Positions 28,501 through 45,680 of a DNA stretch of 64,000 bases are shown in pieces. The stretch covers positions 11,004,633-11,068,632 of the forward strand of contig OZ037769.1 of assembly GCA_964035545.1 (NCBI GenBank), written 5' to 3'. The stretch comes from Bugula neritina. Its lineage: Eukaryota > Animalia > Bryozoa. Position 1 is the stretch's first letter, and every line of letters begins with the position of its first letter. The notes beneath the pieces are model-generated. The model made no database searches. It saw only the letters and a list, made by a program, of their open reading frames with translations, and was not told the DNA's origin. The translations under genes and the position numbers were made by a program.

Positions 28501-29067
28501 AAAGAACTATTAAAATTAATACATTAATGTCTAACGTTATTTGACAAGAAATTTAATTTAATAGAGGAAATCTAAGGTTGAGACAGAATTTTCATAAAAT
28601 CAGGTTATGCTGCACGTTAAGAGTTGTCTTTCTACACACGATGTGTTATAGAACTGCCATGGACACTTAAAATATGTATGTCCCTATTTAAAATTATTAT
28701 TTTAAATAATAGGCCTACAGTATATAATTCCATGATACTGGCACACAAAACACACTAGCATAGCTGTTTACAACAACTTAATTTACAAATTTTTATAGCC
28801 GTTTTTCAGCTTCTATGATATGAATCAATTCATTTGTTATATAACCAGATTTATACTTTTATTCCTACATAGCGAGTTAAACAGGACACTTCACTGCCTA
28901 CAATATTGAGTTATTATGCATGCTGAAAATAGAGTGTAAAGGCAAGAAGCTGGGTTTAAGTCTTTATCACTGCTATCTACCAAATGTGTCGACTGTGTAA
29001 AGTTCTTAAAACTGAGCTTACAACGGCATGTGGTTTAGCGTCATATGCACATTTTAAAAATTATTTG

Positions 29068-29153
<86 letters not shown>

Positions 29154-32100
29154 TTGCGTTCATTCCTGCATTAATTTTTGTTGCGTCAAGAAATAAAACA
29201 CTGCAAGCTAACTGCGATTTCGAGTCAGATTTAAGCACTGCCCATCTTTTGTATATTTTCTTACCTCCAATAACTGGCATTCTGCCATTATCTATTGAGG
29301 ACACAACTCCTGGGAGACCACACAAGGAGCCAGCTAGTATCTCTATAGAGGAAGTGTGGGGGGCCATGACGAGTATGGGCGCCTCTTTACTAGTAACCTG
29401 CTTGCCCTTGACTCTTTGTATAAAAAATCCACTCACATAGCCAGTAAGTAAAGCTAATCGTACTGTTAAATCTCTGAAAATGCTGAAATAATAAATTATA
29501 ATATTTAGCTGCATAAAGGACTAGGCGTATTATCAAAACTAATTGAATTTTGCTAGAAAATTTGCATTTGAGCATCAACTCGCTAAGAGCCACAGTAACC
29601 ATTAAAAATGCAAATGCTCACGTTCAAGCATTAACAAGGCATAAACAAGACGAGTTCTGTTTAGGTATTAACTCTGCCAGATAAATTATACCTAAAAGTT
29701 TGGTGAGAGTTTTGTAATAAAATATATTGAGTGCAAGTTTTTTTTGTTTTTGCGTAATCAATTTTAATGCAGTTCATAATAACTTATTAAAAGCTCAATA
29801 CTGGTTTACTGGCACTATCATGGGTGATCGATTACTTGTGTCTTGCAGCAAATTTTCTCACCATAATCATACAAAAGTTGTTCGTTAAAATTTTATGGAG
29901 GCAATTTCAATCTTCAAAGTATGTGCTGTTTAATGCAAAACAAGCTAAACTAGGCAAAACCAATCGCCAAATGTCCCACCACTTTTTTTCTATAAACATT
30001 GAGGGCATAAAACATTGTCAAGTAGGCAGAGCTTAAATTCTCGTGCTCTGAGTAGACTAATATGCTAACTGTATGATACAAAGAGCTCAAAACTTGATTC
30101 GAGAAAAGATCAACTGAAATAAAATTGAAATTAAGGAATTTCTTTAGACATTGGGTATAATGCATAACATCATATACTCTATATTTTTACTTTTAATAAA
30201 AAGTGAAAACCACCTTATTACAGGATTCACAAACAACATGATTTTTGCACATTGACAGGATAAAATATCAGTAGTAGTAGGTGGATGGTCCTAGGACAAC
30301 CCTTCCCCCGTCGAGTCTTCGACTCTCCGGTGTCAGGGATTGTCCCAGGACGCATCCACCTACTACTACTCTATTAATGTTTTTATTAAGTTTTAAAAAT
30401 TGTACGTTTTAGGACAGTTTATTATTTTATTGTCCTAGAATTGTATGTTTTTAGGTTGGTTTATTATTTTATTACTGTTAATTTAGAATAAAAAAAAAAA
30501 GCAATTACTCATTAATACTATTATAATAAAGTTTAAAATATACGTAATGAAAAGGTAATGCCGTATCAGTTATTTCGCTAGCGGGAGTATCAGTTAAAAT
30601 TACGTCATTGGGTTTATGACTCGGATAATCACTCGAAAGAGCTATTGTAAATGAAAAATTATTATTAGCGTTAATAATTTTATTAATATTTATTTTACTA
30701 TACGGAACATTATGTTCAGCACCGCTTATATCATAAAATAAATTTTCTTTAGATTCATCAAATGGGTTTACGCTATTACGAATATGTAAACCTATTTTTT
30801 TATCAGTCCAATATAACGCTTTTGTTTTATTTTTAGTATAATGTTCACCATAAAATTGTATTAACGCGTGCGTTATTTTTATAGGTTTATTTACTAAATA
30901 ATCGTTAATTAAATCTACCGTAAAACTATTAATATTTTCGTAATAATAAAATTTATTATTATTTATAATACCCGAAATAAACGCTTTATTAGTCGTTATA
31001 TCGACTTTATTAAATTTATAAATATTCATTTATAATTATAATAAAGTTTTATTAATACGTAATGAAAAGGTAATGCCGCATTGGTTATTTCACTAGCGGG
31101 AGTATCGGTTAAAATAACATTACTAGGTTTATGACTAGGATAAGTTTTTGATAATATTATTGATAGTGAAAAGTTTTTATTAGCTTCAATAATTTTATTA
31201 ACGTTTATTTCGCTAAACGGAACATTATGTTCAGCACCGCTTATATCATAAGAAAAAAAAATATTTTCAGCGACGTCACTATACTTAAATGTGTTAGCGC
31301 TATTTCTAATTTCTAAGTTTAATCGTTTATCAGTCCAATAAAGTTCTTTAGTATTATGAGCTTGTTCACCGTAAAAATGTACTAATATATTTGTTATTTC
31401 AATCGGTTCATCGACTAAAAAATCTCTAATTAATATTCCTTCAAAATAATCATCTCTAATATTTTTTATAAAATATGACGGAATTATAATATTCGTAATA
31501 TACGGTTTTTCATTTATTATATTGGCTTTAGCCGAATTTCCAAAAATATATACCGAATTCATTTATAGTTATAATAAAGTTTTACTAATACGTAATGAAA
31601 AGGTAATGCCGCATCAGTTATTTCGCTAGCGGGAGTGTCGATTAAAATTACGTCACTAGGTTTATGACTAGGATAATTTTTTGATAATGACATTGTTAAT
31701 TTAAAGTTTTTATTAGCTTTAATAATTTTATTAGCGTTTATTTCGCTAAACGGAAGATTGTGTTCATTACCGCTTATATTATAAAAAGTATTTTCATTGG
31801 ATGGATTAAATAATTCAGTACTATTTCTAATATGTAAGCCTATTCGCTTATCAGTCCAATAAAGTTTTTTAGTATTATGAGCTTGCTCACCGTAAAATTG
31901 TATTAATATATCCGTTATTTCAATTGGTTCATCGACTAAAAAATCTTTAATTAATGTAGTAGTAAATCCTCCTAAATAATACGTAAATTCTGACGGAATT
32001 ATAATATTCGTAATATACGGTTGTTCATTTATTATATTAGCTGAATTTCCAAAAATATATACCGAAGTCATTTATATAAGTAATTTATTTATAATTAATT

Positions 32101-35100
32101 GAGGTGACTCGCGTTTAAACATTTCTTTAAGCCAGTATAAACACAAGTGTCCGCATATAACCGTACCGAATTTTTGTACTCGTTCCGTGTTATAAAATAT
32201 AGGCGGTTTTAAATATTTCATTATTTCTAGCGGAGGATGTAATCCGAAACTATCGAAATAATATTTTTTATTTCCGTTTTTATACCAAGCTACCCAATGA
32301 GTACCGTTACCCATTAAATCGTCTAAATTTAATATACCACACTCTTTTTTACGCGGCTTATCGGGTAAATCGTTTCTTGAGAATACTCCTCTAAAAAATG
32401 GTATTTTTAATTTTTTAATCGCAAACTCTAATTCAATATTTGAGAGAGCTTTATTTTGTAATTTTATATTTTTTATTTTAATCATTTATATAACCGTAAG
32501 GGACTGTCATTATACCGTTTTTTAATATAATTCTTTTATCGTCTTCGGATGATAATGCCACTTTATTTATAGTCTCGGCATACATCGTATGCTTATGACT
32601 TCTTAACACGTTCATCGTTCTAAATTGATTTCGCCGCGTTAATAAACACTCTTTATAATCATCAAATGTTATGCGATTATCACGAGTTGTTTTATTAATA
32701 CCCTTACATTTTTTCTCTTCTATATCATCCATTTTGTAAGAATATAATTTAGCTCTTAGGCCTATAAATTCTGTAATTTGCTTGCCACCGGCTTCATCCT
32801 TAAACTTTCCTATTACTTTTTTATTTTTACCGGTTGGTATACCCGATTTATGATTTTTTGGATAATTACTCGTGTCAAATTTATTTTCGATATCCGGTAA
32901 TATATCTTTATAAAAATCTTTAGTTTGCACGTGATACATTAAGCTATCTGTATCCGTAAACAGTAACTGAGCTTTATTACCGTATTTAAGTCTAATATAC
33001 TCGTAATGAAAGTCGTACATTAGAGTTTTACTAATGTCTAATATAGCCGCACCTAAATATATAGGCTTGTCAAATTTTAATTTTACTACATTCATATGAA
33101 CGGCTATTAAATTTTTAGAAAATATAGTGAAGTTTTTAAAGTTAGGCTGATTAGTTAATTTTTTAGCTTCGCTTTCGCTAGTAATTAACTTAATGTTAAC
33201 TCTATTTCGTATATTTTCCATCGTTTTACCAAACACGGAATTATTCATTAGCTTAAAAAAATCTTTTTCAAAATCACTCTTAGCTAAAGTTCTTAGTTCG
33301 GTATTTAATTTTATATATTTTTCTAACTTATTCGATTCATTAAAGGTTATACCTCTATGAATCTTCGTTAATTTTAAGCCGTACATAAGACATTGTTCCA
33401 ACGCTTTATAGTGTATAACGTAATTCTTTTTATTATTTAAGTTTGGCACCAACTTTTCTACTTTGTTAATTATTATTCTTTCGGGGCAAAACGGATAATC
33501 TTTATGCGTGTCGTGTAACTTCTTAGAATATTCTAAATCTACTTCCAAAAAGCTAGGCGGAAAGTTTAAACTTTTTTCTAACTTACGGCATTCTCTTTCG
33601 CTTAGCCACTTAAAGTTACTTACGGGTAAATTTTTAGACATGGCCCATCCATATAAATTATTAGCATCTAAATACGTAATATAACTACTAGGCTCTTTGG
33701 GATTATAATTAGTCATATATTCATTATTAGCTCGAGCGTATCTATGACTAATCATACTTACTCCCCCTCTAATTCCTTTTTCAAAGAAGAGTAATTGCTC
33801 AATGTTAGTAATTGGATCCAACTCTAATTCCGTAGTTTTGAGCATAGCGTCCCAACTTAAACCCGGTGCCGTATAGTACCAAGCCGGATCTAATTTATAA
33901 TATTCGAGGCATACGTCTCTAAAGTTTTCAAAAACGTCAGCTAATTGAATTACGTCGACTTCCATATACAAGTCGTGATATTCTCTAAACGTTTTCATAT
34001 TAAACTCTCGCCAAACGTTTTGAGCGTGTTCGTAATCCTCATCGCTTATATTACTTTCAGTTAAACTCGAGTAAAACTTTTCTTTTGGTGGTAAAGACGT
34101 TTCATCCAACACGCTTACGTTATTGAAATAGTCGTACGGAAATACTCCTTTTCTTAACAATAAGCTTAATTTATTTTCATTATTAAAATGTTGTTGTAAG
34201 TATTTAAAGTCATTACGTTTTAAATTCGCTACTAAGCTCGCTAAACTAGAACTCATAAATTTATACGAGTCTAAAAAGCGAATTTCACGCGTAACTTTAA
34301 CTTTTTTACCTTCATTATTAGTAAATTCGTCTACTATTATTTTTTCATTAAACGATATATATTTTTCTTCAGTGTTGGGTATACACGAAATTTCACCGCT
34401 TAAATTTTTAACGAATAAGTGAGCGTCGTAACCCGACAAGTTATGAATAAATACCGGATAAAATTTTGGAATTTTATAATTTAAATTACAATTATTATGA
34501 GCCGCTCCTCTATAGTTTCCGGTTAAGTGGCAGTGATCTCTCACTCTGTCATTACCCAATTTTTCTTCGCATATATAACAATTTTCGGCTAATTCGAAAG
34601 ACTTTTGTTCGCTAGCCGAAATTTCCATTGATTTAGGAAACTTATGTTTTTTATACAAGTTTTTAATGTCGAGTTCTAATAATCTCATAAATAGTTCACC
34701 AATATTTTCGTCTTCGTATTGCTTAGTATAACTTCTGTACTCGCACTCGCCGGTAACGCTCACGATATAATATCCGAAACCCGACGGTTCGTGTTGCTGA
34801 TATTGGTTAGTATAGCTTTTCTGAAAATTAGGCTGACAACTTTGTATAGGCTTAGTAAAACATTCAAAGTCCGCGTATACCACAAACGGTACTCTCATAC
34901 TACGGCAATGGTGACTAGACTGAAATTTTATTTTATTTTCTATTTTCGGAAAGACCGTAGTTACGCCTTCGTTCGTTAAACACCAATCTTGATGCTTTTT
35001 TAAAGATTCGTTAGATCGAAACGAATTCATACAATTTACGCAAATATGTTTAGCGCTAACGCGTTTATTTATTTGCGAACCGAGTAATTTATTTAAATTT

Positions 35101-38100
35101 TTAATATAAGCGTAATGACTCTTTTTGTCGTCGCTTATATAAAATAAATTTATAATTTTACCCTGATTTTTAGTTTTTTTCCATAAATTTATTGTTTTAC
35201 CGTCCCACGTAAATACATTAATTCCAAAATCGGAATTAACCTCTTCAAAAGCGTCAATAGATTTTTTAGTAGCGGGAAATTCAACGCCTTCCCACGAAAA
35301 TTTATTAACGTATTCTTTATAATTATTAATTCTTTCGGGATGGTTTTTAGGCGTATAAACACTCATTAAAATGGCCCACATAAAGCACTTATTATCCTCA
35401 TTTTTAGGATTTATTACGGCTTTTTTTAATTTAATTTCTTTCGGAAGATCAATCCACGATGATCCGTTAAGAGGTTGATATTTATTAATATTAATTTCCA
35501 TTTTTTTAATGGCTTTAAACATCCAGCTACTTCCTTTCGCGTTTAACGAAGCAAAATTTTCTTTTATACGTTCAATTATTTCATCGTATATTTCATTAAT
35601 ATTTGTAGACTCTAATATAGTTTCAATATTTGATGTAAATGGCATAATTTCTACAATAGTTTCTCCGGTACGTACATTAATTTTTTCCATTTCGCAATAC
35701 ATAAATATTTTAACTTTTATAGTAGGTTTCAATAATTCTATTACATTTAATTTTACTAGTTTACTAAACGAATCTATATCGTATTTGGGTAAACCTTTAA
35801 TTTCATAAGTTTGAAACCAACCATTAGCGGCTTGTTCTTTAAGTTTAGGCTGATTATATAAAGCCATAATTTTATCCTTAATTGGATTTATAATTTTTGT
35901 AATTGGCTTTATAACCCATTTTTTTATATTACGCGTAGTTTGCGTAAATATTTCTCGCATAATTTTTTTTACGGGTGTAGGTATTAACGGGGCTTGTCCT
36001 ATATTCGGAACGGGTTCGTCCATAGGCGATAATAGCCGTATAAGTTCGGCTTTTTTTAATCGAGAATATCGTTTCAATCCTCTTTCTTTAGCTAAAGCTT
36101 TTAAAGCTTTTACGGTAATTTTTGTATTGAACTCCATTTATATAATATATTCTTTAATAGTAATATCAATTTTTAATATTATTACTTATGTAAAATAAGT
36201 AATAATACTGGGCTGTTATACGTCTCTATTTTCTTCTTTTAGTTTATAAGCTTCGCGTTTTAAAATACTTTTTATATAAAAATATTTATTAATGTTAGGA
36301 ATTTGTTTTCTCGTTCTAAAATTAATTTCTTTAAGAGATATATTATTAATTACTGGTATATATAAATATTCGAGTAACGGTGTATATTTTTTTTGTTCGG
36401 TTTTAGCTATTAGTTTATCGAGTAATTCAACGGTAAGATCCATATTATAAAATAATAAAATAATAAAAATCATTTTTTTATATAAATGGATTTTCGACGA
36501 GAAAAATTAGAACTTTTAAACGATGAAATTATTAAATTAGAAAACGAATACGAGCAAAAACTTAATCGTTTTAATTGGTTATCAAAATCGTTAAAAATAA
36601 TTTCGGGATTATGCGGTACAACGAATTTAATATGCGGTGTCATTATTACGGCATTAATAAACGCTAACGTTACTAAACAAACGTTATTACCATTATCTAT
36701 AATAGTAAGTATAATGAGCGTAATTACTACTTCTATTTCTTCTCAAGATACTAAATTAATTAAATCTACGTTAATGTATTTAGATATATATACGTTTATA
36801 AAAGATTCAAAATTAGAAATTAATTCTATGTTATCAAAATTTTTAAGCGACTCTTATATAGACGAACAGGAGTATGACGCTATAACCGAAAAATATAAAA
36901 ATATTAATAGCGTAATAGTGAATAAAAAAAGCGATATAATAGTCGCTCGTAACAACGTTTGTTAATTACTTGCAAAATGCAATTAATTAAAAAAGGAAGT
37001 TCAATATAAAAATTATCCGTATATTTATATATGTTTTCTTTAACTATCATTTCGTCTTTTTTCTATTTCGTCTTCGGCGTATTTTAGTTTAGTAAAGAAT
37101 GACGGTATTCTAGCCGCCGCGTAATTCATTAAACCTACATTAAGTTCTTGAATTATTTCTTTAGTTTTGTAAATAGTTTTTATTTTTAATTTTCCATCAT
37201 TTTCTTTATAAATAATTTCTTTTTTATTATTATAAGTAATTTCTTCGAGTAATCCGCACTCATTAGTTGAATTATTCATTTCGTCTAATATATTAAAATT
37301 TTTATATATAATTCTTTCTTTAATATCACCGCCTTCGTACACTCGTTTTTCGTATTCGGAAGTTTTATATATTGTTTCGGTAATCGGGGTGCCGTCGAGG
37401 CTTTTATAAGTAATTACTGTTGACATTTATATACGTTTTCTTTAACTATAACAGCATACCTAAAAGAGGAATATTTTTAAACGGACTATTCGGACCTAAA
37501 ATTAAACCTTCGCCTTTTATATAGCTAGAACCTTGTTTTAAATATAAACCGTTACCTTTCATTAAATTAGACGACGCGACTGGTTTTAAAGTAATAGAAC
37601 CGTTTAAATTAGGTTCTACGGAACATACGCATCCGCCTTTTTTCAAATAAAGACCTTTACCTTTAATAGCTCTTTCGACTCCCGCGCTAGCGGCTCCTGA
37701 AAGTACACCCGGTATAATAGTTTTTAATAGCGTAGGTATTACTCTCGTAGCTATACCTAATAGAGCTCCTAAAAATCCTCCGCTCATTGACGCGTTAGTT
37801 TTTACTAATGACGGAGACATTTCGAGCGTTATATTTTTTTTATTCGCGTTTAACGCTTTTAAAATATTATCATTTTGCGTTTTCGTAACGACTAGTTTAT
37901 CATTTCCGCTTTCGAGAGGCAATTTAATAACGCAACCCTTACCGCTTCTATAAGCGTTCATTATTTTTTGTTTTTGCGCCTGCGGCACGTTTCCTATAAT
38001 TTCGCAGTAACCCATTTATATAATACATTAAACTTCTCTTAAATGAAATCTTATCGAGAGTTGTTCACCGCTAAGATCTAATAAATTACCTTTTTGATCG

Positions 38101-41100
38101 GTTACCGTAACGGTTAACGTCTTAATATATTTAACGTGAACGGGTAAGTATATTAAATTATGAGGTTTTTCTATTATTTTATATCCCGGACTAACGCTCG
38201 GAAAAAATGAATAAATAACGGGTTTATAAGTACCATCGATATAACTTCCATTAATACAATCAACTTGTACGTGTATAGCGTTTATATTTAAAATATTTAC
38301 TATGTTCGTAGCTTCGATATAAGGTTGATTATATATCGCCGCGTCAAAACCTAAAACGTCTCTTAGAGAATTTTCAACGTTAAAATCTATTCGATAATTT
38401 GGTTTTAATTTAAGTATAATTCTAAAAGTTACTTTATTAGCTTGTAAAGTAATACCGTTTCTATTACCCCCCTCTTTTACTATTTCGTCTTGAATAGTTT
38501 CTTCTAGTTGATCTAATTCGTACACTCCGACTGGTAACGAAACTAAATGCCACGTAGTACCACCGTCTTTAGACCATCTATAGGAATTTCTATCGGTACT
38601 AATGTTTGGAAAAGAATAAAACGTATCCAAACTAATAAGACACATTTCGTATTTTTTATTTTTATTTAATTCTATAGGCGGATTAAGTTGAGTAATTATT
38701 CTCGTTTTAGTATCGGTAACTCCTATAGTCATCGTTTGTTTAGAGGCCGTATTATCAGCAATTTCTCTTAATAATTTGTTTTCCATTTATATAACTTTTA
38801 AATTGTTTCCATCGGAACTGAGAGACATAGTTTTATCCGATAGAATTAGCGCGTAAGCTTGAGTATCAGCCGGCACGTTTTGACTAAACTGAACTCTTAA
38901 TTGAATATCGGCTACGCTACTTTTAAGAGCTTCGCTTTGCTTACTAACGTCTATTACGAACAAAGCGTAAAGATCTTTATATTCCGAAGGTAATACGTTT
39001 GAATAAGCGATTAGCTCGTTTATACCGTAATATTCTCCGCAAAACTTAGAAGCGTCTCCGTACACTCTACTAAACTTCATTTTAGCGAAATCTATATCGT
39101 AATCAACTTCGGGATACCGCTCACTGTTTAGCATCGCGTATATACTTTTAACGTTAACGTGATCGAATACGGCCGGATTAGTCGTTTGACTTTCAGTCTT
39201 ATCCGTTTGAAAACCTACAATAATATATTTAGGTTTTTCGGTATCTCCTCTAGAACCCAAACGCCACGTAAAGTTAGTAGTTTGCGGCACCGCGATACTA
39301 TCACACCATCTAGATCTATAAATTAGGGGTAGTTGCGCCTTACTCTCTATAATTTTATAGAGTTTATGCTTCATTTCAAAACTAGGCGTTACGTGAGGCA
39401 TCCACCACGATACTTTATTCAACGTTATTTTTCCCGCGTCTACGCCGTTAGCTCTATAAATAGCGTTATCGTTAGTATCGCGTACTAGCGTTAGTTGATG
39501 TTTTATACCGTATAATACTTTTTCGTAATCATCGGCGAATCCGAACAAATGTCTGAGATCCACTTTAATACTAAAAGTACCTTTAGGATCCGGCTTTTGT
39601 ATAATATAAATTTGACGCGCGTTAAAACCTAAATTAGCGGCGGCAGCGGCTGCGGTAGTATCTTTTGACCACAACTGATTAAGACCTCTCGACTTACCGT
39701 AGTCGTCGGGATAAGTTAATAAACCCATCATGGTCGAAGCGTGTCCGGGATTATTTATATATTCCAAGTCGTGTCCGTCGAGTTGATATCTAATACTTTT
39801 AAACAAATAAGCCATACCGTTATTCGTTAACGTTACTAAGTCGGCGTCGGCGTAAGCGGTTCCGTCATTTTTCGTTAAACGTCCTTCGATAATTAAATAA
39901 CTTTTACTCGGCTGAACGTACAAATCTTGTTGATTAATAACTATTCTAATTTCACTGGGAGTATTTAAATTCGTTCCCGTTACGGGTTCGTATTCGTGTA
40001 CCTGATCGCGCTCTACGCTCGTATCGAGTACAATTTTTTGTGTAATGTTCAGAGAATCCATTTATTATAGTAAAATAATTTCTTAATAAGCTATAGCTTG
40101 TCCGCTTCCTTCTAAAATATTACTTATATTATTATTGTTTAATATATTTTTAGTTTGATTAAGCTTTTGTAGTATAGCTTGACTTTTAGCGTTTAACTTT
40201 TTTTGTCTTCTTTTTTTAATCGCGTTAACAATTTTTTCACCGGCCGCGGTACCCGCTTTAGCTATAGCCTTTTTACCTAATTCTCTTACGCTGGAATTAC
40301 TAGCTATTTTAGTTACTACATTCCTAATGGTATCAAATATTCCACCACCGGCGTAGTGTTTTTGTAATCGTTGTCTTTTATCGTAAACGTACATTTATTA
40401 TACGAGAATACTTTTATAATAGTCACGAGTAATAATTTTCATTCTAAGTAATTCGTCTAATATAGACACAATTTCGTTTCGTACTCCCGTATTTCCGGCT
40501 TTAGCGCTAGAAATTAAAAGTTCGAGTCGTTCTACTAAAGCGTTAGGATCAGACGATAAATATACTACTCCATCACCGACTTGCCTTTTAGCTTTTTTAC
40601 TATCGGCGAGTTTCGCTCTCTGAGGATATAATTGTTCCCAAATAGGTCTAACAATATTTTTCCATTTTTCACTATTTTTATCTATGGGACCGTGTTTACT
40701 TTGATATATAGCGCCGCTATTATCGAGTATATTAGCGTAATTCGCTAAATCATTATCATCGTATCCTATAGGCGTTTTACGCGTTAAAAGACTTAAAAGT
40801 CCTCTAGTCGCCGGATATTCTTCGTTTTCAAAAATTATTTTACCATCGTTAAAACTTATAGGTTTCGTACCAATAACGTGTCTATTACCATCCCACTTTA
40901 CGTTATAAGCGCCGGGTTCTAAGCCAGCTAAAGCGTTTTGCGTATATTCGTCTAAATTTATAACTCCATCCGTTATAGCCGGTTGAACATTATAATTGGG
41001 TAATGTAAGCAATTGTTTTAACGCGTCAGTCGTTTGAGCTTGCGAAGTCGTTACGGGTTCAAAATATTTTTCTTGAGCTATAGCGGCATTTAATTCTCGC

Positions 41101-44100
41101 TCGCGTTCTCGTTTAAAATTTTCTTTTAATTTATTCTTTCGAGAAATAAAATCTTGTACGGTTTTATCTCTTTTTATAGGGTCGTGAATCTTTAAGTAAC
41201 TCATTTATTATATATTAATTTGTGTCTACTTTTTATGGACACAAACACATTTGTGTCTACTTTTTATGGACACAAACACATTTGTGTCCACTTTTGTGTC
41301 TACTTTTTATGGACACAAATACATTTGTGTCTACTTTTTATGGACACAAACACATTTGTGTCTACTTTTTATGGACACAAATGTGTTTGTGTCCACTTTT
41401 GTGTCTAGTGTCCACATTTGTGTCTAGTGTTCACTATAATCGTTCTAAAACGTTTAAATTTACCCAAGAGTTTTGAGAATCGGGATAACCTAACCATTTT
41501 ACTAAAGCCTTTTTACCTTTCTTTTTAATTACGCGTTCTATTCTATACATTTCTTGACTCGTCTTTTGTAATTCCTGTTCGTAAAAAGATCCTTGAATTT
41601 CTTCTCCACCCGAGTCGGTTAATTTATAAGTAGTCGGATTAGTATATAATATTTTACTTATAGTAAACACTTCCTCCGTCCATCTAACGGTATAACCTTT
41701 TTCAAACGTTCGTTTCTTACGAGGTATACGTACTCTATCACCTATAGCGAATTTAGGTTTAAAAGGCGCTGGTAAGTTTGAATATAATTTCACGCGTACT
41801 TTATTTTCATTAGAAGGATTACTAGCTTCAATCGGTGTCATTCCAATAGACGAATGTTTAGTCTCGTTATACCGTTTTACTAAATCTTTTAGTACGTCTA
41901 TATATTTATAAGTATTATTAGCCGAAAAATATTTAAACATTCGCTCTTTCATTGTTCTATTCCACCTCTCTACTACGCTAGACTTTTCTTCATTTTCCGT
42001 AGAATATAAGTCTATTAAAGACTTTACGTCTTTGTTATAAAATTCTTTTCCCTTGTCAACCCATAAATGTTGTGGCTTACGACGAGTTAAAATCGTTTTT
42101 AAAGCTAAAGCAACGGCTTTTCCGGTTTTATTTTTTAAAGGTATTATCCAACCGTATTTTGAAAACACGTCTATTACCGTTAGTAAATATTTATAACCGT
42201 TATTAAATTTAGCGAATTCAGTCATATCAACCAAGTCAGCCGCCCAAATATTATCGATACCCGATACCCAAACTCGTCTTTTACGAAATTTTTTTTGTAC
42301 GGGTTTATGTAGTTCTTCGGCTAACTCGTTCGTCCATCCCCATCCTAAGCGTTTTTTCGCTCCTATTATTGCCGAGGCGAAACGACTGTGTCGCTGTTCA
42401 GCGGGTGTAGGATTAGGTATAGCTTTCAATTCGTCTAGCATATTTTTATCGCATATTTCGTTTCTAGTCTTAGTATCTTTATTAAGCGCGTAACATACGT
42501 CGTGTCTCATGGCTATAGCGTCGTCTCGATCTACCGGTTTACTCCATTCTTTAGGAGTCGTGTCGTCATTAAGACGTTTATTTAATTTAGTACCCGGTCC
42601 TAAAAAATTATGGCCTGGATAATGCAATTCGAAGGGTAAATTATTTATTAAATTATTAGCTAAACCCGACCCAACGAATGTAGTTTTTTTACATCCGCAT
42701 TGACCGCAATTACCGTAACCCATTAGTCTATTATTTTTACTTACTCTCTTTTCGTAATTAAGAGTTTTCGTTTTAGTTTTACACTTACAACAATACATTT
42801 ATTATAATAAATGGAAAAAGAAAATCTTTCGTGGAAAAACGAAATTAATCGTAATAATAATCCTTTACTCCCTAAAAGCATAAGAGGTCTTATCGTTGGA
42901 AAGTCTGGATGCGGTAAAACTACGTTACTTTGTAACTTACTATTACAACCTAATTGGCTCGATTACGATAAACTTATGATTTACGGTAAAAGTCTTTCTC
43001 AACCCGAATATATAAATATGAGGAAGGCTTTCGAACTTAAATTAACTAAAGAAGAAATTTTAAATTTTTTTAAAAATAGTGACGCGATAATAAATTCGGG
43101 TATAAACGTAAATCGTGTTTTAAAAAATAGTAGGGGTAACGGTAATATAGACGCCGAATTTATAGAATCTAGTGACGACGTTTATGATCCTAGCGAATTA
43201 GACGTTAATAATAAAAATTTAATAATATTCGATGATTTAATGTTGGAAAAACAAAAAACTTGCGAAAGTTATTACGTAAGAGGACGACACAATAACGTCG
43301 ATTGTTTTTATTTATCGCAAAATTATTTTAAGCTGCCTAGAAATACTATTCGAGAAAACGCTAATTTTATTTGCTTATTTCCTCAAGACGGAAAAAATTT
43401 AAATCATATATATCAAGATCACGTAACCGGAGATTTAACGTTAAACGAATTTAAAAACTTTTGTTATAAAGGATGGCAAAAACCTCACGGCTTTATTACT
43501 TTAGATCTTTCTTCCTCAAAAAATAATGGGAGATATAGACACGGGTTAGACGAATTTTATATACCGTAATAAATGAGTGTTTATAAATTCGGAGGAAGCG
43601 AAAAAACAAAAATAGATACAAAAAAATTCGTTTTAATAAACGGTAGTAGTACTCTTACGGGTACATTAGATATGGGTGAAAATAAAATATCTAGAGTTAT
43701 TAATCCGGCTGACAATCAAGACGCGGCTACAAAAAAATACGTTGATGATACGAGTATGCCTAAAATACAAAACCCTATTAATCAGTTAACTATATCAACT
43801 GATGATGGACGCGTTATAGATAGTAATTTAAAAGTTGATGATGTTGTTACAAAAACTAATGTATTTAATTACGCAGTACCTCTTATACGAGACCCGAGTG
43901 AAAAATTAACCGTATCAACTAATACGGGTAATATTGTAGATAGTAGCTTAAGCGTTAGCGATATTGTTACGACTAGTAATATAAATAATTTCGCTATAAA
44001 TAAAATACAACCAGCGAATGAAAAATTAACCGTTTCGACTACTTCGGGTAATGTTGCGGATAGTAGTTTAAGCGTTAGCGATATTATTACGACTAGTAAT

Positions 44101-45680
44101 ATAAATAATTTCGCTATGAATAAAATACAACCAATAATCGGAAGTAAATTATTAATGCTTTCGAGTGATGGTAATATTGTAGAAACGAATATAAATATTT
44201 CGGATCTTATTACAATAAATAATATATCGGATTACGCTATTCCTAAATTACAGGGAGCAGTTGGTAATAAATTAATTATATCAACGAGCGATGGTAATAT
44301 AATAGAATCTACAGAATCTCAACCCACATTTCCAAGTTATAACGTTTAAACACTAAATTATTATATTCTTAACGTATAATAATTTATTATCTTATTAATA
44401 GTAACGAGTGAATGCATTCTGAAATAAAAGTTAATGTTTGTCCTAAAAACGTACAATTCTGAAACAAAACTCTATAAAATATTTTTTTATTCTAAATTAA
44501 CAGTAATAAAATAATAAACTATCCTAGAACGTACAATTCTGGGACAGTAAACTCAATAAAACAATAAACTGTCCTAAAACGTACAATTTCTAAAACTTAA
44601 TAAAAACATTAATAGAGTAGTAGTAGGTGGATGCGTCCTAGGACAATCCCTGACACCGGAGAGTCGAAGACTCGACGGGGGAAGGGTTGTCCTAGGACCA
44701 TCCACCTACTACTACTAATATCGCTATTATAAGTTTTATACATACAGCCGCCAGCCGGCCAGAGGCGTGTCTGGCTCCAAGGGAAGACCGAAGACTGCGA
44801 TACGAGCAGCAAGAGAAGTCAATGCAAAGCAGGAGAAAATAAGAGCCAATCGAATAGGTGCTATAGTCACTGCCATTATATAAAACTACAATATTTGATA
44901 TATAAATGTAAGTCTTTAATTATCTTTTCAAGTACTGCATGCATGAAAATTTGTTTTGGAAATTTCTTATACTATAATTATAGTCTATAAGTGTTTATAC
45001 TATATCATGACATAGTTTGTAGAAACAAACCTATAAAGGTATAATTAACATAGCATTCACATATATGGCAAAACTCATTGTGTAAACTGAAATGCAATTT
45101 TGCAACTACTCTGAACAGATTTGTAAATGTATTAAGCCACTTTTCTAGACAAGAAGATGAAAGTCAAATAAAAATACAAATCATTCAAGTGATTGAGCAG
45201 TCATAGCATTTAAGAAAGATTAAGGCTTATTTTGTTAGAACGAATAATTTTCGTAAAAGCATGTTCTCAGAATTAGGGTGTTTTACGAAGCATGTGAGAT
45301 TGCTGTCTGCAAATTAAAAGAGAACTCTGGTATTACAGTACTTAATTTTACAAAAATTACAAAGCTTAGAAAGAAGGTGTTACAAAAGAAAATGCCCAAA
45401 GATTTAAAATTTAAAATTAATTTTTCAACAGCAGAATATGTCTTTCTAAAAATGTTTCAAACAAATTATTATCATTAAAACACCAAAACCAGTTTTAATC
45501 AAACAGCCAAAGATACAAAAACACAAAATGAATGTAAACACTCACAACTATTCTATCCCAAAACGTTGTGTAGAGAGTATATCTAAAAGGGTGAGTATTG
45601 AGCGAGCTGTCTGACACAGAGTTATTATGTAATCCATTGCTGTCTCTTTTGTAATCCAAGTCTTCTGCTGCCTCGGCCAT
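25558..45680 (-). CDS. LPCAT-like lysophospholipid acyltransferase paralog A (~352 aa, 7 exons; Polinton in intron 2)
   Basis: Exons 45546-45680, 44746-44885, 29265-29482, 28278-28451, 26796-26889, 26063-26200, 25558-25717; TIAPIR, EAPILVMAPHTSSIE, WPQIIILPEG, FKTGAFLPGVPVQP, PVYDPSEAEKENAELYARNVR. Confidence 0.88.
27275..27487 (+). mobile_element. tRNA-derived SINE copy, full length
   Basis: GGGAGCAGCCATGGTCTAGGG...GGTTCGAGCCC...TATAAACTTGCGTGAGT. Confidence 0.85.
27853..28063 (+). mobile_element. tRNA-derived SINE copy with (TGAG)n tail
   Basis: Same family; followed by the second copy of a 19-bp direct repeat. Confidence 0.85.
29068..29155. repeat. (TG)n microsatellite
   Basis: Directly visible. 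Confidence 0.97.
30270..30496 (+). repeat. Left TIR of the Polinton; outer 101 bp form a hairpin
   Basis: Reverse complement of 44482-44716; outer 101 bp differ at one base, inner part has substitutions and a ~9-bp indel. Confidence 0.95.
30505..31029 (-). CDS. Polinton orphan paralog 3 (174 aa)
   Basis: ORF shares LYWTDK, YDISGAEHNVP, YPSHKP, DTPASEIT, LPFHYV blocks with its two neighbours. Confidence 0.85.
   Translation of the reverse strand: MNIYKFNKVDITTNKAFISGIINNNKFYYYENINSFTVDLINDYLVNKPIKITHALIQFYGEHYTKNKTKALYWTDKKIGLHIRNSVNPFDESKENLFYDISGAEHNVPYSKININKIINANNNFSFTIALSSDYPSHKPNDVILTDTPASEITDTALPFHYVYFKLYYNSINE
31026..31562 (-). CDS. Polinton orphan paralog 2 (178 aa)
   Basis: Same conserved blocks; ATGA overlaps with both neighbours. 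Confidence 0.85.
   Translation of the reverse strand: MNSVYIFGNSAKANIINEKPYITNIIIPSYFIKNIRDDYFEGILIRDFLVDEPIEITNILVHFYGEQAHNTKELYWTDKRLNLEIRNSANTFKYSDVAENIFFSYDISGAEHNVPFSEINVNKIIEANKNFSLSIILSKTYPSHKPSNVILTDTPASEITNAALPFHYVLIKLYYNYK
31559..32071 (-). CDS. Polinton orphan paralog 1 (170 aa)
   Basis: Same conserved blocks; ATG immediately follows the protease stop. Confidence 0.85.
   Translation of the reverse strand: MTSVYIFGNSANIINEQPYITNIIIPSEFTYYLGGFTTTLIKDFLVDEPIEITDILIQFYGEQAHNTKKLYWTDKRIGLHIRNSTELFNPSNENTFYNISGNEHNLPFSEINANKIIKANKNFKLTMSLSKNYPSHKPSDVILIDTPASEITDAALPFHYVLVKLYYNYK
32072..32485 (-). CDS. Adenain-like cysteine maturation protease
   Basis: GTHWVA (His), YFDSFG (Asp), VQ...ICGHLC (Gln, Cys) motifs. 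Confidence 0.93.
   Translation of the reverse strand: MIKIKNIKLQNKALSNIELEFAIKKLKIPFFRGVFSRNDLPDKPRKKECGILNLDDLMGNGTHWVAWYKNGNKKYYFDSFGLHPPLEIMKYLKPPIFYNTERVQKFGTVICGHLCLYWLKEMFKRESPQLIINKLLI
32478..36137 (-). CDS. Protein-primed family B DNA polymerase (1219 aa)
   Basis: Exo motifs YADFE, HNLSGYD, YMEVD; pol motifs YLDANNLYGWAM, KLMNNSVFGK, FTDTDSL; also Rho_N-like N-terminus, OTU-like segment, Zn finger and endonuclease VII-like insert. Confidence 0.97.
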   Translation of the reverse strand: MEFNTKITVKALKALAKERGLKRYSRLKKAELIRLLSPMDEPVPNIGQAPLIPTPVKKIMREIFTQTTRNIKKWVIKPITKIINPIKDKIMALYNQPKLKEQAANGWFQTYEIKGLPKYDIDSFSKLVKLNVIELLKPTIKVKIFMYCEMEKINVRTGETIVEIMPFTSNIETILESTNINEIYDEIIERIKENFASLNAKGSSWMFKAIKKMEININKYQPLNGSSWIDLPKEIKLKKAVINPKNEDNKCFMWAILMSVYTPKNHPERINNYKEYVNKFSWEGVEFPATKKSIDAFEEVNSDFGINVFTWDGKTINLWKKTKNQGKIINLFYISDDKKSHYAYIKNLNKLLGSQINKRVSAKHICVNCMNSFRSNESLKKHQDWCLTNEGVTTVFPKIENKIKFQSSHHCRSMRVPFVVYADFECFTKPIQSCQPNFQKSYTNQYQQHEPSGFGYYIVSVTGECEYRSYTKQYEDENIGELFMRLLELDIKNLYKKHKFPKSMEISASEQKSFELAENCYICEEKLGNDRVRDHCHLTGNYRGAAHNNCNLNYKIPKFYPVFIHNLSGYDAHLFVKNLSGEISCIPNTEEKYISFNEKIIVDEFTNNEGKKVKVTREIRFLDSYKFMSSSLASLVANLKRNDFKYLQQHFNNENKLSLLLRKGVFPYDYFNNVSVLDETSLPPKEKFYSSLTESNISDEDYEHAQNVWREFNMKTFREYHDLYMEVDVIQLADVFENFRDVCLEYYKLDPAWYYTAPGLSWDAMLKTTELELDPITNIEQLLFFEKGIRGGVSMISHRYARANNEYMTNYNPKEPSSYITYLDANNLYGWAMSKNLPVSNFKWLSERECRKLEKSLNFPPSFLEVDLEYSKKLHDTHKDYPFCPERIIINKVEKLVPNLNNKKNYVIHYKALEQCLMYGLKLTKIHRGITFNESNKLEKYIKLNTELRTLAKSDFEKDFFKLMNNSVFGKTMENIRNRVNIKLITSESEAKKLTNQPNFKNFTIFSKNLIAVHMNVVKLKFDKPIYLGAAILDISKTLMYDFHYEYIRLKYGNKAQLLFTDTDSLMYHVQTKDFYKDILPDIENKFDTSNYPKNHKSGIPTGKNKKVIGKFKDEAGGKQITEFIGLRAKLYSYKMDDIEEKKCKGINKTTRDNRITFDDYKECLLTRRNQFRTMNVLRSHKHTMYAETINKVALSSEDDKRIILKNGIMTVPYGYIND
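36216..36473 (-). CDS. Polinton hypothetical protein (85 aa, or 75 aa from the ATG at 36443)
   Basis: ORF fills a gap in the compact element; start uncertain. Confidence 0.55.
   Translation of the reverse strand: MIFIILLFYNMDLTVELLDKLIAKTEQKKYTPLLEYLYIPVINNISLKEINFRTRKQIPNINKYFYIKSILKREAYKLKEENRDV
36486..36965 (+). CDS. Polinton putative membrane protein (coiled coil + two hydrophobic helices)
   Basis: 159-aa ORF with ATAAATG start; hydrophobic LICGVIITALI and LLPLSIIVSIMSVIT. Confidence 0.75.
   Translation: MDFRREKLELLNDEIIKLENEYEQKLNRFNWLSKSLKIISGLCGTTNLICGVIITALINANVTKQTLLPLSIIVSIMSVITTSISSQDTKLIKSTLMYLDIYTFIKDSKLEINSMLSKFLSDSYIDEQEYDAITEKYKNINSVIVNKKSDIIVARNNVC
37040..37426 (-). CDS. 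Polinton hypothetical protein (128 aa)
   Basis: ORF with ATAAATG start and repeated (T/I)-I-(Y/T)-(K/Y)-like strands. Confidence 0.7.
   Translation of the reverse strand: MSTVITYKSLDGTPITETIYKTSEYEKRVYEGGDIKERIIYKNFNILDEMNNSTNECGLLEEITYNNKKEIIYKENDGKLKIKTIYKTKEIIQELNVGLMNYAAARIPSFFTKLKYAEDEIEKRRNDS
37446..38015 (-). CDS. Putative virion core protein, adenovirus pX-like, with several adenain sites
   Basis: MSGG/FLGALLGIA resembles the pX C-terminal region; IKGKG, MKGNG, IKGEG fit (M/I/L)XGX/G. Confidence 0.75.
   Translation of the reverse strand: MGYCEIIGNVPQAQKQKIMNAYRSGKGCVIKLPLESGNDKLVVTKTQNDNILKALNANKKNITLEMSPSLVKTNASMSGGFLGALLGIATRVIPTLLKTIIPGVLSGAASAGVERAIKGKGLYLKKGGCVCSVEPNLNGSITLKPVASSNLMKGNGLYLKQGSSYIKGEGLILGPNSPFKNIPLLGMLL
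38028..38786 (-). CDS. Minor capsid (penton) protein
   Basis: Size, position next to MCP and Polinton mCP-type motifs LNPPIEL, FPNIS, LPVGVYE, VLGF, CINGSY, LIYLPV, DQKGNLLDLSGE. Confidence 0.85.
   Translation of the reverse strand: MENKLLREIADNTASKQTMTIGVTDTKTRIITQLNPPIELNKNKKYEMCLISLDTFYSFPNISTDRNSYRWSKDGGTTWHLVSLPVGVYELDQLEETIQDEIVKEGGNRNGITLQANKVTFRIILKLKPNYRIDFNVENSLRDVLGFDAAIYNQPYIEATNIVNILNINAIHVQVDCINGSYIDGTYKPVIYSFFPSVSPGYKIIEKPHNLIYLPVHVKYIKTLTVTVTDQKGNLLDLSGEQLSIRFHLREV
38787..40061 (-). CDS. Major capsid protein (double jelly-roll)
   Basis: 424 aa; EIRIVINQQDLYVQPSKSYL, YLFKSIRYQL, LFGFADDYEK, EKPKYIIVGFQ, LNSERYP, LFVIDVSKQ typical of Polinton MCP. Confidence 0.9.
   Translation of the reverse strand: MDSLNITQKIVLDTSVERDQVHEYEPVTGTNLNTPSEIRIVINQQDLYVQPSKSYLIIEGRLTKNDGTAYADADLVTLTNNGMAYLFKSIRYQLDGHDLEYINNPGHASTMMGLLTYPDDYGKSRGLNQLWSKDTTAAAAAANLGFNARQIYIIQKPDPKGTFSIKVDLRHLFGFADDYEKVLYGIKHQLTLVRDTNDNAIYRANGVDAGKITLNKVSWWMPHVTPSFEMKHKLYKIIESKAQLPLIYRSRWCDSIAVPQTTNFTWRLGSRGDTEKPKYIIVGFQTDKTESQTTNPAVFDHVNVKSIYAMLNSERYPEVDYDIDFAKMKFSRVYGDASKFCGEYYGINELIAYSNVLPSEYKDLYALFVIDVSKQSEALKSSVADIQLRVQFSQNVPADTQAYALILSDKTMSLSSDGNNLKVI
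40083..40394 (-). CDS. Small basic putative core/membrane-active protein
   Basis: YAGGG followed by amphipathic IFDTIRNVVTKIAS; C-terminal LEGSG fits the adenain consensus. Confidence 0.7.
   Translation of the reverse strand: MYVYDKRQRLQKHYAGGGIFDTIRNVVTKIASNSSVRELGKKAIAKAGTAAGEKIVNAIKKRRQKKLNAKSQAILQKLNQTKNILNNNNISNILEGSGQAIAY
40398..41204 (-). CDS. Polinton hypothetical protein (268 aa), probably conserved
   Basis: N-terminal coiled coil; C-terminal YLSSDPNALVERLELL..AGNTGVRNEIVSILDEL resembles a recurring Polinton core-gene domain (recalled, not searched). Confidence 0.7.
   Translation of the reverse strand: MSYLKIHDPIKRDKTVQDFISRKNKLKENFKRERERELNAAIAQEKYFEPVTTSQAQTTDALKQLLTLPNYNVQPAITDGVINLDEYTQNALAGLEPGAYNVKWDGNRHVIGTKPISFNDGKIIFENEEYPATRGLLSLLTRKTPIGYDDNDLANYANILDNSGAIYQSKHGPIDKNSEKWKNIVRPIWEQLYPQRAKLADSKKAKRQVGDGVVYLSSDPNALVERLELLISSAKAGNTGVRNEIVSILDELLRMKIITRDYYKSILV
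41219..41433. repeat. Array of 31-bp palindromic units TTTGTGTCTACTTTTTATGGACACAAACACA inside the Polinton
   Basis: Five units plus partial copies, intergenic. Confidence 0.9.
41434..42798 (-). CDS. Retroviral-like DDE integrase fused to an N-terminal Zn ribbon and parvovirus-type PLA2, with C-terminal chromodomain
   Basis: CCKC...CGQC; HNFLGPGT...DAIAMRHDVCY; WAADLVD, WVDKGKEF, VVERWNRT; YRIERVIKK...ALVKWLGYPDSQNSWV. Confidence 0.95.
   Translation of the reverse strand: MYCCKCKTKTKTLNYEKRVSKNNRLMGYGNCGQCGCKKTTFVGSGLANNLINNLPFELHYPGHNFLGPGTKLNKRLNDDTTPKEWSKPVDRDDAIAMRHDVCYALNKDTKTRNEICDKNMLDELKAIPNPTPAEQRHSRFASAIIGAKKRLGWGWTNELAEELHKPVQKKFRKRRVWVSGIDNIWAADLVDMTEFAKFNNGYKYLLTVIDVFSKYGWIIPLKNKTGKAVALALKTILTRRKPQHLWVDKGKEFYNKDVKSLIDLYSTENEEKSSVVERWNRTMKERMFKYFSANNTYKYIDVLKDLVKRYNETKHSSIGMTPIEASNPSNENKVRVKLYSNLPAPFKPKFAIGDRVRIPRKKRTFEKGYTVRWTEEVFTISKILYTNPTTYKLTDSGGEEIQGSFYEQELQKTSQEMYRIERVIKKKGKKALVKWLGYPDSQNSWVNLNVLERL
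42811..43569 (+). CDS. A32/FtsK-like DNA packaging ATPase
   Basis: Walker A GKSGCGKT, Walker B IIFDD, RGRHNN, YLSQNYFKLP..IREN. Confidence 0.95.
   Translation: MEKENLSWKNEINRNNNPLLPKSIRGLIVGKSGCGKTTLLCNLLLQPNWLDYDKLMIYGKSLSQPEYINMRKAFELKLTKEEILNFFKNSDAIINSGINVNRVLKNSRGNGNIDAEFIESSDDVYDPSELDVNNKNLIIFDDLMLEKQKTCESYYVRGRHNNVDCFYLSQNYFKLPRNTIRENANFICLFPQDGKNLNHIYQDHVTGDLTLNEFKNFCYKGWQKPHGFITLDLSSSKNNGRYRHGLDEFYIP
43573..44349 (+). CDS. Fibre-shaft-like repeat protein (258 aa)
   Basis: LDMGENKI...DNQDAATKKYVD neck-like motif followed by ~5 repeats of 40-41 aa (KLTVSTxxGNIxDSSLSVSDI). Confidence 0.75.
   Translation: MSVYKFGGSEKTKIDTKKFVLINGSSTLTGTLDMGENKISRVINPADNQDAATKKYVDDTSMPKIQNPINQLTISTDDGRVIDSNLKVDDVVTKTNVFNYAVPLIRDPSEKLTVSTNTGNIVDSSLSVSDIVTTSNINNFAINKIQPANEKLTVSTTSGNVADSSLSVSDIITTSNINNFAMNKIQPIIGSKLLMLSSDGNIVETNINISDLITINNISDYAIPKLQGAVGNKLIISTSDGNIIESTESQPTFPSYNV
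44482..44716 (-). repeat. Right TIR of the Polinton
   Basis: Inverted copy of 30270-30496; hairpin at 44616-44716. Confidence 0.95.

What the first reader, a model, noticed from the sequence alone, without database searches (positions are those of the whole stretch)
30505..44349. Candidate modular spike system: a headless fibre and three shaftless heads share an N-terminal peptide
The fibre-like protein at the right end starts MSVYKFG; the three left-end paralogs start MTSVYIFG, MNSVYIFG and MNIYKFN, although the proteins are otherwise unrelated. The fibre ends just after its last shaft repeat with no evident knob, and the paralogs have no shaft. Adenovirus fibres dock on penton base through a short N-terminal FNPVYPY peptide. 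Inference: four interchangeable vertex proteins use a common VYxF docking peptide, or separate tips assemble on the shaft, allowing mixed or switchable tropism.
Basis: inference. Interest (0 to 1): 0.85.

Follow-up and report, generated by a model that had tools for sequence, protein, structure and literature searches.

The report
Polinton-wide plug on virus spike proteins
A virus-like element inserted in an animal genome carries one headless fibre and three small shaftless proteins that all begin with the same short tag, a tag that many related elements put on otherwise unrelated fibre proteins, so it is likely the common plug that fixes exchangeable spikes to the virus particle, though no binding has been shown.

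Summary
The window holds a complete Polinton/Maverick (30270-44716). In detail: a fibre that stops after five repeats and three beta-sandwich paralogs share an N-terminal peptide. The motif is not VYxF but [VI]-[DNHY]-[KI]-F-G. It starts fibre-type ORFs in 33 of 87 penton-anchored loci of related elements (18 of 25 well-covered ones), on unrelated bodies: collar fibres, collagen, discoidin heads, small shaftless proteins. Tyrosine is local to this lineage, so the likeness to adenovirus FNPVYPY is probably chance. In the paralog family 29 of 34 intact N-termini keep F-G, down to 29% identity, and none of the hits is fused to a shaft. Best reading: a capsid-anchoring tag, with the paralogs as independent short spikes; the penton is the likelier partner, the major capsid protein a serious rival. 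Tips assembling on the shaft is unlikely. The principle is known from adenovirus fibre tails and Zamilon Zav_19/20/1, and this scan noted like tags on giant-virus fibres; I found no paper on this Polinton tag.

The parts
30270..44716 (.). Complete Polinton/Maverick element with 6-bp target-site duplication (30264-30269, 44717-44722)
30270..30496 (.). Left terminal inverted repeat
44482..44716 (.). Right terminal inverted repeat
30505..31029 (-). H3: shaftless paralog, 174 aa; weak tag (G missing)
31026..31562 (-). H2: shaftless paralog, 178 aa; full tag at 31536-31562
31559..32071 (-). H1: shaftless paralog, 170 aa; full tag at 32045-32071; predicted beta-sandwich from about residue 13 (low-confidence model)
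32072..32485 (-). Adenovirus-type protease (weak Pfam match); the paralog array follows it directly
   Evidence: (PF00770, E 0.006, below cut-off)
32478..36137 (-). Protein-primed type-B DNA polymerase (assigned from recalled motifs and homologs in related loci)
38028..38786 (-). Minor capsid protein (penton) with insertion domain; candidate docking partner
38787..40061 (-). Double jelly-roll major capsid protein; rival docking partner
   Evidence: PF21738, E 1.6e-57
41434..42798 (-). Integrase with N-terminal PLA2-like domain and C-terminal chromodomain
42811..43569 (+). Packaging ATPase
   Evidence: PF04665, E 2e-8
43573..44349 (+). Headless fibre, 258 aa: tag 43573-43596, phage-tail-fibre-like collar about 43639-43758, repeats 43759-44346

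Best explanation
The four proteins share a short N-terminal tag, [VI]-x-[KI]-F-G, found across related Polintons on unrelated fibre-type proteins, and it likely anchors each of them to the outside of the capsid, more likely in the cleft between penton subunits than on the major capsid protein. Shown: the tag, its conservation, its recurrence on unrelated bodies, the penton-like fold of 38028-38786 (predicted), and the standalone form of the paralog family. Inferred: that the proteins are virion components, that they are trimers presenting three tags, that the paralogs are independent short receptor- or glycan-binding spikes that compete with the fibre for the same sites, and that a particle could carry a mixture. 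The fibre is read as a lineage that lost its own head; whether it still does anything is open.
For: Tag in 33 of 87 loci, 18 of 25 with six or more core genes; a looser pattern gave 39 matches in 34 of 87 loci, a few spurious, against 0-8 in ten shuffles. Bodies behind it: phage-tail-fibre collar, collagen (L062, L068), discoidin F5/8 (L004, L007, L016), 126-147-aa shaftless proteins (L004, L018, L087). Two loci carry two tagged genes (L002, L004). None of 120 penton homologs has it. Paralog family: 29 of 34 intact N-termini keep F-G, 34 of 34 keep F (41 examined, 7 lacked an N-terminus; some are near-duplicates), down to 29% identity, with D and H variants that link it to the family-wide form. 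All 21 hits among 1.84 billion representatives are 185 aa or shorter. P0021 (paralog family) and P0024 (fibre) share their first ten residues. In 6 of the 17 loci mapped, a tagged gene directly follows the protease, the slot that H1-H3 fill here. The penton model (pLDDT 91.7) matches mavirus penton Z 13.5, Sputnik Z 12.8 and fowl adenovirus penton base Z 12.4 over 242 residues, rmsd 5.8. The H1 model is a beta-sandwich with a low-confidence N-terminus. Adenovirus tails bind the penton cleft (PMC8156859, passages).
Against: No binding, virion or expression evidence. The H1 model is poor (pLDDT 56, three sequences) and its best match (Z 8.3, rmsd 3.4, 121 aligned, a carbohydrate-binding module) is nearly tied with TNF/C1q, phage cement and small-virus capsid folds; trimer formation is untested. 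H3 and 5 homologs of its subfamily lack the G. 7 of 25 well-covered loci show no tag (many are partial or decayed). The loci were fetched by penton similarity, so tag-penton co-occurrence is built in and says nothing on the partner. Many loci come from a few metagenomes and are not independent. In a virophage, the comparable shared N-terminal module is proposed to sit on major-capsid capsomers (bioRxiv 2023.01.23.525297).
Confidence: 0.6

Rival explanations
1. The tag docks on the major capsid protein (capsomer tops or three-fold axes), so the paralogs are capsid decoration or facet spikes, not vertex proteins. This is a sub-case of the anchoring reading.
For: Noumeavirus NMV_189 is a tail-less fibre head fitted on capsomers, and Zamilon Zav_19/20/1 are proposed to anchor on capsomers; atadenovirus LH3 and protein IX use an N-terminal triskelion on hexons; trimeric phage cement proteins are among the fold matches (Z 7.3-7.4); four genes would have more sites on facets than on 12 vertices.
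Against: Most tagged proteins are ordinary long fibres; the shared part is a short peptide, as in adenovirus tails, not a folded prism; the penton keeps the adenovirus-like insertion.
Confidence: 0.2
2. The tag is a motif for a host protein (nuclear import, chaperone, sorting to the assembly site) shared by late proteins, not a capsid anchor.
For: Five residues can serve as a linear motif for a host factor; nothing here names the partner.
Against: The other 12 element ORFs, capsid and core proteins included, lack it; it sits at the end of the fibre opposite the head, where virion anchors lie.
Confidence: 0.12
3. The paralogs are separate tips that assemble on the end of the headless shaft.
For: The fibre stops where homologs P0025 and P0149 begin a domain of about 120 aa, and the paralogs have a head-like fold.
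Against: Sharing the N-terminal tag points to the same site, not to each other. P0152 appears to share a contig with the headed fibre P0149 (equal length 7418, same source; inferred). The paralog family is unrelated to the P0149 head (only the N-terminus aligns, probability 13%). Other elements have tagged shaftless proteins too (L004, L018, L087).
Confidence: 0.08
4. The likeness is a relic: paralogs arose from a fibre gene by deletion or exchange behind its first codons, and the peptide no longer matters.
For: Common descent of the 5' end is plausible; H3-type members lose the G in about half of cases.
Against: F is kept in 34 of 34 and F-G in 29 of 34 N-termini while the residues behind vary in length and sequence and overall identity falls to 29%; paralogs show dN/dS 0.46-0.65.
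Confidence: 0.1

Closest known systems
Zamilon virophage Zav_19/Zav_20/Zav_1 and noumeavirus NMV_189 (bioRxiv 10.1101/2023.01.23.525297; abstract, passages and section 7 read; supplements not seen)
   Same: One virus, several surface proteins with a shared N-terminal module on unrelated bodies of different length, including a short or tail-less beta-sandwich head; proposed mixed display.
   Different: The shared module is a 52-aa beta-prism, here a peptide of under ten residues; proposed partner is the capsomer; host is a protist system, here an animal endogenous element; no headless fibre.
Adenovirus fibre tail and penton base, including two-fibre viruses (HAdV-F40/41, aviadenoviruses, LAdV-2) (PMC8156859, passages)
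   Same: Short conserved N-terminal peptide on fibres; penton with an insertion domain; more than one fibre gene per genome.
   Different: Motif differs (F-G core, Y not conserved); adenovirus fibres all have shaft plus knob; here the tag is on collagen, phage-collar, discoidin and shaftless bodies.
Phage-like fibres of Polinton-like viruses and oomycete Polintons (PMC12220804, PMC10748475, passages); adintovirus gene sets (PMC8502044 passages and section 8; PMC11071296 passages and section 16)
   Same: Modular fibre genes in the same virus group, assumed to attach to the penton.
   Different: In the passages seen, no shared N-terminal tag and no array of shaftless paralogs is described.

Membership tests
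Polinton/Maverick | Terminal inverted repeats and 6-bp target-site duplication | tested here: met
Polinton/Maverick | rve integrase, packaging ATPase, double jelly-roll major capsid protein | tested here: met
Polinton/Maverick | Single jelly-roll minor capsid protein | tested here: met
Polinton/Maverick | Protein-primed polymerase B and adenovirus-type protease | tested here: inconclusive
   Pfam gave no polymerase family and a sub-threshold protease match; both have strong homologs in related loci; polymerase motifs recalled
Adintovirus Alpha or Beta class | OTU-like domain on PolB; class of hexon and PolB | not tested
   Only the integrase chromodomain and a PLA2-like domain were seen
Adenovirus fibre-tail/penton system | FNPVYPY-type tail sequence | tested here: not met
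   core is F-G; 35 of 35 matches in other loci have D, N or H at the Y position
Adenovirus fibre-tail/penton system | Penton with adenovirus-like insertion domain | tested here: met
   8roq_M Z 12.4 over 242 residues; 8coi_A Z 7.5 on residues 60-163
Adenovirus fibre-tail/penton system | Tail binds the cleft between penton subunits | not testable with these tools
Adenovirus fibre-tail/penton system | Trimeric beta-spiral shaft | not tested
   repeats are 40-41 aa; the fibre was not folded
Adenovirus fibre-tail/penton system | C-terminal knob on the fibre | tested here: not met
Zamilon Zav_19/20/1-type system | Shared N-terminal module on unrelated bodies | tested here: met
Zamilon Zav_19/20/1-type system | 52-aa beta-prism N-terminal domain | tested here: not met
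   conservation ends at about residue 8
Viral fibre heads (trimeric beta-sandwich) | Fibre-head fold and trimer | tested here: inconclusive
   low-confidence model; matches tied among carbohydrate-binding, TNF/C1q, cement folds

The most novel reading that the evidence does not exclude
Animal Polintons use one five-residue N-terminal plug to mount any captured domain on the particle, and this lineage has split the classical fibre into a headless shaft and a copy-number-variable, loop-variable array of shaftless spikes that share the same sites, giving mosaic particles.
Probability: 0.35. Interest if true: 0.75.

Novelty: new variant of a known kind. Interest (0 to 1): 0.55.

Why it matters
How animal Polintons would attach to cells is an open question (own knowledge: no animal Polinton particle structure is known to me). 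A short, conserved N-terminal tag gives a simple way to pick out their candidate surface proteins, many of which match no family, and reduces the question to a peptide-capsid binding test. An array of such genes with variable loops and variable copy number also suggests that endogenous copies are still selected as particles.

Tried and rejected
Complex prediction (penton x3 with the H1 tag) was not available, so there is no verdict. The protein atlas was not available. No host genome is held. Scans with the paralog alignment found no loci in the metagenome or viral collections, nor did single-protein scans with penton and major capsid protein in the viral collection. A DNA scan for the tag in viral contigs gave 10 hits, none near Polinton genes, 9 internal to one unrelated protein family: the short word alone is not specific; it needs the N-terminal position. 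Pfam, PHROGs and PDB sequence searches name nothing for the paralogs; Foldseek on PDB gave no match at E 0.001; on viral models 37 weak matches, several of them collagen-fibre proteins, also plant movement proteins. Paralogs are not penton duplicates by profile and do not significantly match the 147-aa protein of L004. A dUTPase-like look of L018/L087 (by eye) was not confirmed. Protease-site reading rejected: G after F-G is not conserved (site consensus recalled). Shared upstream DNA rejected as the cause: a TATAA/TAATAA box precedes 15 of 16 element ORFs. No RNA holder was listed; no statement on expression is made. Positive selection not shown: dN/dS in the variable loops was 1.07, 0.39, 1.19 on 31-33 codons chosen after seeing the variation. 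Literature searches without a description of the tag.

Full report
The element. The finding lies in a complete Polinton/Maverick at 30270-44716, with inverted repeats of about 230 nt and a 6-bp target-site duplication. It has integrase, ATPase and double jelly-roll capsid genes, a weakly matched protease, a polymerase assigned from recalled motifs and homologs, and a minor capsid protein whose model (pLDDT 91.7) matches pentons of PBCV-1, mavirus, Sputnik and fowl adenovirus at Z 12.4-14.1. Contigs of public runs show a multi-copy, varied family.

The observation. The four N-termini are as stated. H1-H3 are paralogs; the fibre is unrelated to them beyond the first residues. The fibre has a phage-tail-fibre-like collar (PHROGs E 8e-6), four full repeats and a partial fifth, and no room for a head before the right repeat. 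Two homologs, P0025 and P0149, have a shorter shaft and about 120 more residues starting where this fibre ends, so the headless state is probably derived. It does not look private to this copy: contig depth runs past the stop, one listed piece spans it by more than 31 letters on both sides (X7, 44210-44393), and only one contig form, in one sample, has a deletion there. That table is cut (40 of 184 substitution rows, 32 of 1072 pieces shown), so headed variants are not excluded.

I fetched 87 loci by penton similarity (the metagenome scan kept the best 80 of 470). M-x(0-2)-[VIA]-[DNHY]-[KIVQ]-F-G occurs 35 times in 33 of 87 loci, in 18 of 25 with six or more core genes, twice in L002 and L004. 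A looser pattern gave 39 matches against 0-8 in ten shuffles, and exactly four in the whole window; these patterns were written after seeing the data. A matrix from 20 locus peptides ranks the four window proteins first of 16 and scores none of 120 penton homologs above -1.4. Behind the tag come collar fibres, collagen, discoidin domains and small shaftless proteins (16 tagged locus proteins were scanned against Pfam, 6 against PHROGs). Conservation stops at about residue 8. All 35 locus matches have D, N or H at the position of Y, so the adenovirus VY likeness is likely incidental. Many loci come from few metagenomes and are not independent.

The paralog family. Two searches gave 23 and 21 hits; with cluster members 41 proteins were examined, 34 with an intact N-terminus, of which 29 keep F-G and all keep F, down to 29% identity to H1; single members have D or H in place of Y. 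In the all-length search none exceeds 185 aa, so the domain is not seen fused to a shaft. Co-location is inferred in both cases. The array sits right after the protease, where 6 of 17 mapped loci have a tagged gene. The H1 model is a beta-sandwich with an unmodelled N-terminus, pLDDT 56; matches are generic. No cysteine, signal or membrane segment is seen. Variation is concentrated in segments near residues 21-40, 61-70 and 81-90, overall dN/dS is 0.46-0.65, and single-contig joints suggest shorter and longer arrays in other copies (31566 to 32081; 31955 back to 31476), though paralog cross-mapping could mimic them.

Mechanism. A short peptide kept at the virion-side end of unrelated fibres is best read as the anchor. 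By analogy with adenovirus (PMC8156859, passages), three tags of a trimer would bind clefts between penton subunits; the paralogs would be short spikes competing for those sites. I put 0.6 on capsid anchoring, about two thirds of it on the penton. The capsomer rival has a real precedent in Zamilon and noumeavirus. Tip-on-shaft assembly is unlikely for the reasons given above.

Novelty. Shared N-terminal anchors on several fibres, and tail-less heads, are published for adenoviruses, a virophage and a marseillevirus. Earlier unchecked notes of this scan report like tags on giant-virus fibres. Seven literature searches and passages or named sections of six papers showed no description of this tag or array; subscription papers and supplements were not seen and may hold one. 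Verdict: new variant of a known kind, interest 0.55.

Noticed in passing
window 30505-44349, upstream of ORF starts: 15 of 16 element ORFs have TATAA or TAATAA directly before the ATG, an element-wide start box.
   Followed up: partly
window 41434-42798: The PLA2-like domain is fused to the integrase here; in several related loci (L001, L002, L004, L007, L008, L024, L087) the matching part is a separate ORF.
   Followed up: partly
L018:2538-2918, L087:6097-6486: Tagged 126-129-aa shaftless proteins right after the PM-like gene; by eye dUTPase-like, not confirmed by Pfam or PDB.
   Followed up: partly
L004:5444-6587: Two tandem tagged genes after the protease: a 147-aa protein of no family and a 226-aa discoidin protein.
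   Followed up: partly
window 43481-44354: Contig joints suggest tandem fibre genes and different repeat numbers in other copies.
   Followed up: no
window 29041-29514: ORF left of the element looks by eye like an exon of a host lysophospholipid acyltransferase, suggesting an intronic insertion; Pfam gave nothing significant.
   Followed up: partly
window 41187-41438: 31-nt tandem repeats between the integrase and the next gene.
   Followed up: no
L087 (record title MAG bacterium): A Polinton contig sits in a bacterial genome bin, probably contamination.
   Followed up: no
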